4,245 nucleotides of DNA. It comes from a virus. Taxonomy: Duplodnaviria > Heunggongvirae > Uroviricota > Caudoviricetes. The stretch is from the IMG/VR virus record IMGVR_UViG_2671181188_000006. One strand, written 5' to 3'. A program made the position numbers and the translations under genes. Of the stretch, positions 3,088-3,315 are shown piece by piece (the first letter of the stretch is position 1; every line of letters begins with the position of its first letter). The notes beneath the pieces were generated by a model. That model saw only the letters and a program-made list of their open reading frames with translations. It was not told the DNA's origin and made no database searches.

Positions 3088-3162
3088 AGAGAAAAGCCCC
3101 AGTTAACATTACGCGTCCTGCAAGACGCTTAACATTAATCTGAGGCCCAATCTATGCTTCAC
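3088..3162 (-). ncRNA. Candidate Sok-like antisense small RNA (about 70 nt) opposite the leader of the hok remnant
   Basis: On the minus strand there is a -35 TTGCCT (+ coords 3192-3197), a 17-bp spacer and a -10 TAACCT (3169-3174). The predicted transcript ends in a 7-bp stem (+ coords 3140-3146 with 3096-3102, one G-U pair) followed by UUUUCUCU. The length and position resemble Sok of hok/sok loci. This is structure-based only. Confidence 0.25.
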
Positions 3163-3210
3163 AAACGTAGGTTAGCCTCTTACGCGCCGAAAGGCAAGGA
3201 GAAGCAGGTT

Positions 3211-3315
3211 ATGAAGCAGCAAAAGGCGATGTTAATCGCCCTGATCGTCATCTGTTTAAAAACGAACCTGAGGAGTAAGAGACCAGGCGGGGGAGAAATC
3301 CCTCGCCACCGCTGA
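3211..3315 (+). pseudogene. hokD: Hok-family type I toxin gene remnant (HokD/RelF-like) with an internal out-of-frame deletion
   Basis: The first 16 codons encode MKQQKAMLIALIVICL, which matches the N-terminus of E. coli HokD/RelF as I recall it. An SD, AAGGAG, lies upstream. The frame then runs through 18 unrelated codons to TGA at 3313-3315. The HokD-type C-terminal coding sequence GAA CCT GAG GAG TAA (EPEE-stop, 3264-3278) is present but in a different frame, which implies loss of about 88 bp encoding the transmembrane/toxic core. Confidence 0.6.

What the first reader, a model, noticed from the sequence alone, without database searches (positions are those of the whole stretch)
3154..3315. 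Decayed Hok-family toxin gene with its C-terminal codons stranded out of frame
The ORF starts with MKQQKAMLIALIVICL, identical to the HokD/RelF N-terminus as I recall it. It then frameshifts, while EPEE-stop, the HokD C-terminus, is encoded intact in another frame 6 nt later. This indicates an internal deletion of about 88 bp that removes most of the transmembrane helix and the periplasmic toxic domain. Chromosomal hok loci are known to be frequently inactivated, so this fits established knowledge. It is still notable because the SD, an upstream in-frame ATG at 3154 (with GAGG 8 nt before it) and the terminator are preserved.
Basis: partly seen in the sequence, partly recalled or inferred. Interest (0 to 1): 0.5.

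Follow-up and report, generated by a model that had tools for sequence, protein, structure and literature searches.

The report
Toxin-dead prophage hok/sok locus
This is an ordinary, already well-known hok/sok toxin-antitoxin cassette of an E. coli O157:H7 lambda-like prophage in which 90 bases inside the Hok toxin gene have been replaced by two, killing the toxin while leaving all its RNA control elements untouched.

Summary
Apart from the lesion, the whole 4245-nt window is 100% identical to prophage Sp14 of E. coli O157:H7 Sakai, EDL933 and other O157:H7 strains. In those genomes the locus carries an intact 51-codon gene annotated hokD. In the window, 90 nt of that gene (codon 17 position 2 to codon 47 position 1) are replaced by "AA" at 3260-3261, a net loss of 88 nt. 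The remaining ORFs (53 aa from the mok ATG at 3154, 34 aa from the hok ATG at 3211) no longer match the Hok/Gef Pfam family, whereas the intact relative scores 82.9 bits. EPEE-stop is stranded out of frame at 3264-3278.

Every regulatory part lies outside the lesion and is intact: hok promoter, tac, ucb, mok SD and ATG, dcb, hok SD and ATG, fbi, the terminator, and the antisense Sok gene with its promoter.

The junction is absent from 5,426 complete E. coli genomes and from the GTDB, IMG/VR and JGI collections. It is therefore a singleton allele: a recent spontaneous deletion, or less likely an assembly or cloning artefact. Other independent deletions and frameshifts of the same gene are common in public assemblies.

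Verdict: a pseudogenised member of a known family, of low interest.

The parts
3008..3035 (+). Putative hok mRNA promoter: -35 TTGCTG (3008-3013), 16-nt spacer, -10 TAGAAT (3030-3035)
   Evidence: Read from the sequence. The -10 aligns with the TATAAT upstream of K-12 hokC. The generic scan did not call it because the -35 is weak. Inferred.
3042..3372 (+). hok mRNA (full-length form), shortened by a net 88 nt relative to intact copies
   Evidence: The Rfam sok/hok-leader model starts at 3042. The terminator is at 3347-3364 followed by a T-run. The fold has z = -6.2.
3042..3054 (+). tac element (5' end, GGGUGCUUGAGGC)
   Evidence: Pairs with 3328-3340 in the predicted minimum-free-energy fold (MFE) of both the deleted and the intact RNA. 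Also seen as inverted repeats I4 and I7. Invariant in 69 related loci. Element definition from PMC9841398.
3095..3100 (+). ucb (anti-SD of mok), AGCCCC
   Evidence: Pairs with the mok SD region 3144-3146 in the MFE and with tac in repeat I1. The assignment is inferred from the model in PMC9841398.
3086..3162 (-). Sok antisense RNA gene (antitoxin), about 77 nt
   Evidence: The annotated K-12 sokC ends map to window 3162 (5') and 3086 (3'). The strand folds into a long hairpin followed by a U-run, -37.5 kcal/mol, z = -5.6.
3169..3197 (-). Sok promoter: -35 TTGCCT (3197-3192), 17-nt spacer, -10 TAACCT (3174-3169)
   Evidence: Read from the sequence. It differs at 1 of 30 nt from the sokW region covered by probe YO-597. 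The aligned AGGTTAGCC is rewritten in primer YO-421, which I take to be the mutagenic primer for the promoter-less sokW construct of Takada et al. 2021; the paper does not label it as such (PMC8621323).
3142..3156 (+). mok Shine-Dalgarno GAGG (3142-3145) and mok ATG (3154-3156)
   Evidence: The K-12 mokC ATG maps to 3154. mokC and hokC share a stop codon and differ by 57 nt, as do 3154 and 3211 here.
3174..3179 (+). dcb (AGCCUC, complementary to the mok SD), adjoining and sharing one base (3174) with the Sok -10 element
   Evidence: Complementarity read from the sequence. PMC9841398 states that dcb overlaps the Sok promoter mutation. Inferred.
3154..3315 (+). Frameshifted mok-hok ORF (53 aa; 34 aa from the hok ATG at 3211); hok SD AAGGAG at 3196-3201
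   Evidence: Neither product gives a Pfam or NCBIfam hit.
3211..3258 (+). Retained hok codons 1-16 (MKQQKAMLIALIVICL)
   Evidence: Identical to intact HokD.
3259..3262 (+). Deletion junction: 3259 is the last base matching the left flank, 3260-3261 are the AA filler, 3262 is the first base matching the right flank
   Evidence: None of 80 IMG/VR loci reads AAACGAACC at this point.
3262..3278 (+). Stranded 3' end of the hok CDS: AC of Tyr47, then GAA CCT GAG GAG TAA (EPEE-stop), in the +2 frame relative to the hok ATG
   Evidence: The K-12 hokC stop maps to 3278.
3321..3343 (+). fbi element (fold-back inhibition; CAGGCAUCCUCAACGCACCCGCA)
   Evidence: Complementary to 3039-3060 (I4 and I7). Paired with tac in the MFE.
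3347..3372 (+). Intrinsic terminator of the hok mRNA
   Evidence: a 7-bp stem with 5 GC pairs, followed by TTGTTTTTT.

Best explanation
Window 3008-3372 is the hok/mok/sok type I toxin-antitoxin cassette of the lambda-like prophage Sp14 of E. coli O157:H7. It lies between the replication/nin-region genes and rem, ydfU (DUF968), rusA and Q.

In intact copies the mechanism is as follows. A stable hok mRNA is kept untranslatable by a 5'-3' tac/fbi helix. After 3' trimming it refolds and exposes the mok SD. Translation of mok, an in-frame 19-codon extension, drives synthesis of the 51-aa membrane toxin, unless the unstable antisense Sok RNA pairs over the mok start and triggers RNase III cleavage.

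In this window 90 nt of the toxin coding sequence (codon 17 to codon 47) have been replaced by AA. Both mok and hok now run into a +1-frame tail and end at TGA 3313-3315. The products keep only 11 of the 20 residues of the hydrophobic stretch A6-T25, taken here as the transmembrane helix, and none of the C-terminal domain. They are expected to be non-toxic.

All RNA control elements and the Sok gene lie outside the lesion. The locus should therefore still make Sok and a Sok-regulated but harmless mRNA, so it is a toxin-null allele. Because the flanks are 100% identical to intact O157:H7 copies and the junction is seen nowhere else, the lesion is very recent and specific to the source strain or record. 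A spontaneous deletion is the most likely cause.

Shown here: the homology, the lesion, loss of the Hok domain, and preservation of the elements at sequence level. Inferred: transcription, Sok function, non-toxicity of the product, and natural origin.
For: - Identity and lesion.
- Sp14 assignment: the feature on Sakai NC_002695.2 reads 'prophage Sp14, lambda-like phage'.
- Domain loss: the intact protein hits PF01848 at 82.9 bits (cut-off 22) and the window products hit nothing.
- Leader: Rfam RF01794 scores 114.9 bits against a cut-off of 59 over 3042-3216.
- Coordinates: sokC, mokC and hokC map onto 3162-3086, 3154 and 3211.
- The tac/fbi helix is kept in the predicted folds of both the deleted and the intact RNA.
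- The Sok hairpin and U-run are present.
- The nearly identical sokW promoter, and the toxicity of the paralogue HokW, were shown experimentally (PMC8621323).
- The mechanism and element definitions come from PMC9841398 and the introduction of bioRxiv 10.1101/2025.08.07.668861.
- The junction is absent from all collections searched. The only 22-mer hit is a chance match.
- Independent decay alleles of the same gene exist elsewhere.
Against: - The allele is a singleton. No read-level data are available, so an assembly, sequencing or cloning artefact cannot be excluded.
- The junction has a 2-nt filler and no microhomology. Of the other alleles examined, only L004 shows a clear direct repeat (5-nt CCTGA); L007 and L005 have 2-3 nt of possible homology, and none was noted for L006.
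- Non-toxicity of the 34-aa and 53-aa products and continued expression of Sok were not tested.
Confidence: 0.72

Rival explanations
1. The deletion is not biological. It is an assembly, sequencing or cloning artefact in the record the window was cut from. One route would be a shotgun or PCR clone in which the toxic hok insert was counter-selected and only a deleted clone survived.
For: - The junction is absent from 5,426 complete E. coli genomes, 295 of which match the whole window at 99% identity or more. It is also absent from GTDB representatives, IMG/VR, JGI metagenomes and PLSDB.
- The exact products are not on record among 153 billion gene positions.
- The junction has a 2-nt filler and no microhomology.
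- Authors of the Hok survey report that one toxic homolog could be cloned only in mutated form (bioRxiv 10.1101/2025.08.07.668861).
Against: - The flanks are perfect and the junction is clean.
- Independent natural-looking deletions of the same CDS occur in unrelated assemblies, so real decay is common.
- Nothing else in the 4.2 kb window looks misassembled.
Confidence: 0.22
2. The toxin-less cassette is retained for a function of its own. It could act as a Sok donor (an anti-addiction module) that neutralises related hok mRNAs of co-resident prophages. Conversely, its harmless mRNA could act as a Sok sponge that tunes the other copies.
For: - All RNA elements and the Sok gene lie exactly outside the lesion.
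- O157:H7 genomes carry 4-8 related places per record for the locus itself.
- Several other decay alleles also keep the leader and Sok region.
Against: - The allele is a singleton with zero divergence from intact copies, so there has been no time for selection to act.
- The 5' end of Sok and its target is the most variable part of the leader among paralogues, which argues against broad cross-reaction.
- Chromosomal Sok RNAs did not repress R1 hok (PMC9841398).
- Finding leader-retaining alleles is partly a search bias, because the query was the N-terminus.
Confidence: 0.05
3. The resemblance to hok is coincidental, or the 53-aa ORF encodes a new functional small protein.
For: None beyond the existence of an open frame with a good SD.
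Against: - The DNA is 100% identical to annotated hokD loci on both sides of a single gap.
- The new C-terminal tail is simply the +1 frame of the hok 3' UTR. Other frameshifted alleles share it (RSKRPGGGEIPRH in P0001 and P0002).
- The exact product is found nowhere else.
Confidence: 0.01

Closest known systems
Intact hokD-annotated hok/mok/sok locus of prophage Sp14 (E. coli O157:H7 Sakai NC_002695.2 2699941-2704273; EDL933; PV15-279 locus tag ECpv15279_RS14210, WP_000813254.1)
   Same: Every base of the 4245-nt window outside 3260-3261, and the same gene neighbourhood: replication protein P, DUF1627, small hypothetical proteins, hok, rem-like, DUF968.
   Different: The intact locus has 90 nt (codons 17-47) where the window has AA. 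Its product is a 51-aa Hok/Gef family protein.
hokW/sokW of Stx2 prophage Sp5 (Takada et al. 2021, PMC8621323)
   Same: A paralogous cassette in a lambdoid prophage of the same strain. It has the same leader start (GCGGGTGCTTGAGGCT...), and its Sok promoter region differs from the window at 1 of 30 nt. The 51-aa toxin begins MKQQKAM (primers). Toxicity of HokW, antitoxin activity of sokW, and dependence on RNase III and Hfq were shown experimentally.
   Different: hokW is intact and functional and helps early lysis after induction. The C-terminus differs, judging from the hokW C-terminal tagging primer. The Sok 5' and mok codon 2-5 patch also differs (CTGAACACATG against CTTCACAAACG).
K-12 hokD (relF) in cryptic prophage Qin
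   Same: The coding sequence is identical in the retained parts, and the 3' UTR, fbi and terminator are nearly identical. The downstream neighbours rem and ydfU are the same.
   Different: K-12 hokD lacks the hok leader, mok and sok, with relE lying directly upstream. The window has the complete leader but a broken CDS, which is the opposite kind of truncation.
K-12 hokC/mokC/sokC (gef) locus
   Same: The architecture matches. The leader from GGGTGCTTGAGGCTGTCTG aligns, mok is a 19-codon in-frame extension, and sokC overlaps the mok start. It is also an example of a decayed chromosomal locus: IS186A ends 20 nt downstream of the hokC stop.
   Different: hokC is hit by an IS element in its 3' region and keeps an intact CDS. 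Here the CDS is deleted and the 3' region is intact. The window's Sok hairpin carries an 18-nt insertion relative to sokC.
hok/sok (parB) of plasmid R1
   Same: The regulatory logic and elements match: tac/fbi, ucb, dcb, mok coupling, and Sok with RNase III (PMC9841398).
   Different: R1 hok/sok is plasmid-borne and mediates post-segregational killing. Its Hok is only about 44% identical to the prophage HokW type (PMC8621323).

Membership tests
Hok/Gef toxin family (Pfam PF01848) | The protein matches the HOK_GEF profile above the gathering score | tested here: not met
   The window products (53 aa and 34 aa) give no Pfam or NCBIfam hit at E<=0.1. The intact allele from L001 scores 82.9 bits against a cut-off of 22. 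The window therefore holds a pseudogene of the family, not a member protein.
[quoted passage not shown] | DNA homology of the whole cassette to characterised or annotated hok loci | tested here: met
   The flanks are 100% identical to annotated hokD loci.
[quoted passage not shown] | Structured leader recognised by the Rfam sok/hok-leader covariance model | tested here: met
   RF01794 scores 114.9 bits against a gathering score of 59, E = 1.4e-26, over 3042-3216. The hit is on the hok-sense strand.
[quoted passage not shown] | A mok reading frame with its own SD that starts upstream of hok and overlaps it | tested here: met
   GAGG at 3142-3145 and ATG at 3154, 57 nt upstream of and in frame with the hok ATG at 3211, as for mokC and hokC. 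The frame is broken downstream by the same lesion.
[quoted passage not shown] | A cis-antisense Sok gene over the mok start, with a promoter and a terminator hairpin | tested here: met
   sokC maps to 3162-3086 on the minus strand. The hairpin and U-run are present. The promoter TTGCCT-17-TAACCT matches the region disrupted in the promoter-less sokW construct of PMC8621323. Expression itself was not tested.
[quoted passage not shown] | Long-range 5'-3' (tac/fbi) complementarity that closes the full-length mRNA | tested here: met
   Inverted repeats 3039-3047/3335-3343 (9 of 9) and 3048-3060/3321-3333 (85%). The two are paired in the MFE of both the deleted and the intact RNA. Both arms are almost invariant in 69 loci, so there is no covariation evidence either way.
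[quoted passage not shown] | The toxin kills or arrests the cell and Sok counteracts it | not testable with these tools
   Shown only for the paralogue hokW/sokW (PMC8621323). Loss of toxicity for the window allele is predicted from the loss of codons 17-47.

The most novel reading that the evidence does not exclude
A toxin-null hok cassette that still makes Sok and a Sok-binding mRNA could act in trans on the several other hok/sok copies carried by co-resident O157:H7 prophages. As an anti-addiction Sok donor, it would make it easier to lose or silence sister prophages. As a Sok sponge, it would sensitise them. Such toxin-dead but RNA-intact alleles might then be a recurrent, selected state rather than neutral decay.
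Probability: 0.05. Interest if true: 0.45.

Novelty: already known. Interest (0 to 1): 0.12.

Why it matters
It matters little in itself. It documents one more way a prophage-borne type I toxin gene is knocked out, here by a 90-to-2 nt replacement confined to the coding sequence. It also shows that this allele is private to the source of the window.

It is useful for annotation. The 53-aa ORF should be labelled a hok/mok pseudogene, and the antisense Sok gene should still be annotated.

The only wider angle is the set of independent toxin-dead, leader-intact alleles, together with the hypervariable Sok 5' patch. A proper population survey could use them to ask whether co-resident prophage hok/sok copies cross-talk.

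Tried and rejected
- Junction searches, looking for the source or for any second occurrence. I searched megablast on complete E. coli genomes and plasmids. I also ran an exact 32-mer and then a 22-mer against GTDB genomes, IMG/VR and JGI metagenomes. The only hit was a 22-mer in OW818666.1, which is a chance match inside an unrelated gene.
- Exact-product look-ups for the 53-aa and 34-aa ORFs found nothing on record.
- I considered that the AA filler was inherited from a variant allele reading AAACGAACC. I rejected this because all 80 IMG/VR loci read CAGCTTACGAACC.
- I considered a slippage deletion between direct repeats and rejected it, since there is no repeat at the breakpoints.
- I first placed ucb and dcb from memory (ucb at 3173-3183, dcb inside the deleted segment). 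I corrected this after reading PMC9841398: ucb lies upstream of the mok SD and dcb overlaps the Sok promoter, so neither is deleted.
- The weak Rfam hits are below their gathering scores and are driven by the hok 3' hairpins and terminator. These are isrK at 27 bits, rsmX and ceN48. I rejected all three.
- The generic promoter scan found only one site (3129-3158, plus strand), which does not fit the known architecture, so I did not use it.
- I could not determine the source record of the window. The idea that it derives from an older clone-based O157:H7 assembly remains untested.

Full report
**Observation**

The window contains the ORF 3154-3315, 53 aa: MLHKRRLASYAPKGKEKQVMKQQKAMLIALIVICLKTNLRSKRPGGGEIPRHR. 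From the internal ATG at 3211 it reads MKQQKAMLIALIVICL. These are residues 1-16 of HokD, MKQQKAMLIALIVICLTVIVTALVTRKDLCEVRIRTGQTEVAVFTAYEPEE, as translated from an intact relative. GAA CCT GAG GAG TAA (EPEE-stop) sits at 3264-3278 in another frame.

**Homology and the lesion**

Megablast of 2980-3400 against 5,426 complete E. coli genomes gives 100% identical hits annotated 'type I toxin-antitoxin system toxin HokD'. Each hit comes as two pieces that span 509 nt in the record against 421 nt in the window.

Excluding the two filler bases, the whole 4245-nt window is 100% identical to O157:H7 genomes including Sakai and EDL933. In Sakai the feature reads 'prophage Sp14, lambda-like phage'. These hits are again in two pieces spanning 4333 nt.

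Base-by-base comparison with NZ_AP018488.1 (locus L001) shows identity through 3259 and again from 3262. L001 4281-4370 (90 nt, CCGTCATAG...CACAGCTT) is replaced by AA at 3260-3261, a net loss of 88 nt. There is no microhomology at the breakpoints.

In codon terms the loss runs from position 2 of codon 17 to position 1 of codon 47. A four-way alignment with the intact Sp14 copy, K-12 hokD and K-12 hokC shows a single 88-column gap with conserved flanks.

**Consequence for the protein**

- The intact 51-aa protein hits Pfam PF01848 (Hok/gef) at 82.9 bits, against a cut-off of 22.
- The Mok-extended 70-aa form scores 81.6 bits.
- The window's 53-aa and 34-aa products hit nothing in Pfam or NCBIfam.
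- The products keep 11 of the 20 residues of the hydrophobic stretch A6-T25.
- They lose R26 to A46, including Cys30.
- The Tyr47 codon is destroyed. Its UACG motif is the reported TadA editing site of hokD mRNA (introduction of bioRxiv 10.1101/2025.08.07.668861).
- Loss of toxicity is inferred, not tested.

**Anatomy of the locus**

This is a complete hok/mok/sok cassette, not the truncated K-12 relBE-hokD arrangement. The parts are:

- **Leader.** Rfam RF01794 (sok) matches 3042-3216 at 114.9 bits, against a gathering score of 59. The match is on the hok-sense strand, so it recognises the hok leader.
- **Coordinates by homology to K-12.** mokC and hokC share a stop codon and differ by 57 nt, so Mok is an in-frame 19-codon extension. 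The same 57 nt separate 3154 from 3211. Mapping through the alignment puts the mokC ATG at 3154, the hokC ATG at 3211 and the hokC stop at 3278.
- **Sok gene.** The same mapping puts sokC at 3162 (5') to 3086 (3') on the minus strand. That strand folds into a long hairpin followed by a U-run (-37.5 kcal/mol, z = -5.6).
- **Sok promoter.** It reads TTGCCT (3197-3192), 17 nt, TAACCT (3174-3169). It differs at 1 of 30 nt from the sokW sequence covered by probe YO-597. The aligned AGGTTAGCC is rewritten in primer YO-421, which appears to be the primer used for the promoter-less sokW construct (PMC8621323).
- **hok promoter.** The likely promoter is TTGCTG-16-TAGAAT at 3008-3035. Its -10 aligns with the TATAAT of hokC.
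- **tac and fbi.** The 5' end (tac, 3042-3054) is complementary to 3321-3343 (fbi), seen as repeats I4 and I7. The two are paired in the predicted MFE of both the deleted RNA (-137.5 kcal/mol, z = -6.2) and the intact RNA (-174.9 kcal/mol).
- **ucb and dcb.** Using the definitions in PMC9841398, ucb (about 3095-3100) and dcb (3174-3179, next to the Sok -10) also lie outside the lesion.
- **Terminator.** It is at 3347-3364, followed by a T-run.

The lesion therefore removes coding sequence only. No element known to control hok expression is touched.

**How it most likely works now**

By analogy with R1 hok/sok and Sp5 hokW/sokW (PMC9841398, PMC8621323), the locus should still behave as follows:

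- It should transcribe a fold-back-locked mRNA and the antisense Sok.
- Mok and hok translation, when it occurs, now yields short frameshifted peptides.
- These peptides end in the +1 reading of the 3' UTR (KTNLRSKRPGGGEIPRHR).

It is a toxin-null allele. All of this paragraph is inference from sequence.

**Is the allele seen elsewhere?**

No. A 70-nt query centred on the junction gives only two-piece hits covering 97% in complete E. coli genomes and in plasmids. A one-piece 100% hit would have ranked first.

The exact 32-mer is absent from GTDB representative genomes, IMG/VR and JGI metagenomes. A 22-mer gives one hit, in OW818666.1, which is a chance match in an unrelated gene. The exact products are not on record.

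With zero divergence in the flanks, the lesion is either very recent and strain-specific or an artefact of the record. I cannot distinguish these without reads. I put about 0.72 on a real deletion and 0.22 on an artefact.

**Decay of this gene is common**

A protein search with the 53-aa product returned many other broken Mok-Hok forms. DNA was fetched for four of them and aligned:

| Locus | Lesion |
|---|---|
| L004 | 115-nt deletion between two CCTGA repeats (product P0067, 44 aa) |
| L006 | 49-nt deletion |
| L007 | 43-nt deletion |
| L005 | Deletion fusing hok codon 16 to the end of rem (P0061) |

Others are single-base frameshifts at the TGTTTAA run (P0004, P0034, P0102). Some of these may be sequencing errors, for example L006, which has 0.97x coverage. 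Because the query was the N-terminus plus the +1 tail, the sample is biased towards alleles that keep the leader and share the frame.

K-12 hokC, with IS186A ending 20 nt past its stop, is the textbook kind of decay.

**Comparison with known systems, and novelty**

[quoted passage not shown] Prophage enrichment of hok is documented (bioRxiv 10.1101/2025.08.07.668861), and a paralogue has been characterised (hokW/sokW). The window's allele is a pseudogene of it.

Nothing here is new in kind.

- 90-nt loss plus a 2-nt filler, rather than a clean 88-nt deletion
- 5 nt rather than 6
- about half of the hydrophobic stretch lost, rather than most of the transmembrane helix
- the upstream ATG is the mok start
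- the locus is a full hok/sok cassette rather than the K-12 relF form

**Most novel reading not excluded**

Toxin-dead but Sok-intact alleles could act in trans on sister prophage copies. Against this, the Sok 5' and target patch (3146-3166) is the most variable part of the leader among 69 near-identical loci. That suggests paralogue-specific recognition. I give this reading about 0.05.

Noticed in passing
window 3146-3166 (mok SD-to-ATG spacer and mok codons 1-5; includes the 5' end of the predicted Sok, 3154-3162): Among 69 full-type loci from IMG/VR that encode an identical HokD, this patch is the most variable part of the leader. Its mean entropy is 0.6-0.8 bits per column, against 0.1 or less in the adjacent ucb, dcb and SD segments. 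It occurs as discrete variants such as CTTCACAAACG, AACGGCAAATC, CTAGACACATG and CTGAACACATG. It may set Sok-target specificity between co-resident prophage copies.
   Followed up: partly
window 3042-3216 (+): The Rfam 'sok' model RF01794 matches the hok-sense strand over the whole leader, not the antisense strand. By homology to the annotated K-12 sokC, the real Sok lies at 3162-3086 on the minus strand. Automated annotation from this model would put Sok on the wrong strand and give it the wrong length.
   Followed up: yes
window 2978-2993: A perfect 16-nt palindrome, TATGGGAATTCCCATA, lies in the intergenic gap about 15 nt upstream of the putative hok -35. Its role is unknown; it could be a protein-binding site or the terminator of the upstream operon.
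   Followed up: no
window 2752-2826 and 2863-2967 (+): Two very small hydrophobic ORFs lie just upstream of the hok cassette. One is 24 aa (MSRPDAFAGVAIAIAFLVYVICRWG). The other is 34 aa (MSDDISLVMEGALAVIAVVGVYCLVVFLMERLGN) and is annotated as hypothetical protein WP_001278460.1. The 34-aa ORF gave no Pfam hit; the 24-aa ORF was not submitted. They are possible small membrane proteins.
   Followed up: partly
window 3262-3265 and L001 4369-4373: The right breakpoint removes the T of TAC (Tyr47), turning UACG into AACG. That motif is the reported TadA A-to-I editing site which recodes Tyr to Cys in hokD mRNA (introduction of bioRxiv 10.1101/2025.08.07.668861; PMC12214031 listed).
   Followed up: no
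L008-L087 (IMG/VR): Of 80 viral contigs encoding a HokD identical to the intact Sp14 protein, 70 carry the full hok/sok leader and 10 lack it. The ones I inspected have the K-12-type relE-fused upstream region. The 'truncated' relBE-hokD arrangement is therefore a minority form that itself circulates on prophages.
   Followed up: partly
L004, L005, L006, L007: These are independent internal deletions of the same hok CDS in unrelated public assemblies: 115 nt between CCTGA repeats, a hok-rem fusion, 49 nt and 43 nt. L004, L006 and L007 keep both the leader/Sok region and the 3' UTR; the L005 fusion keeps only the leader/Sok region.
   Followed up: yes
window 3287-3368 (+): There is a weak isrK-like Rfam hit (27 bits, gathering score 50) on the 3' end of the hok mRNA. 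It is probably driven by the two hairpins and the terminator, and I do not consider it real.
   Followed up: no
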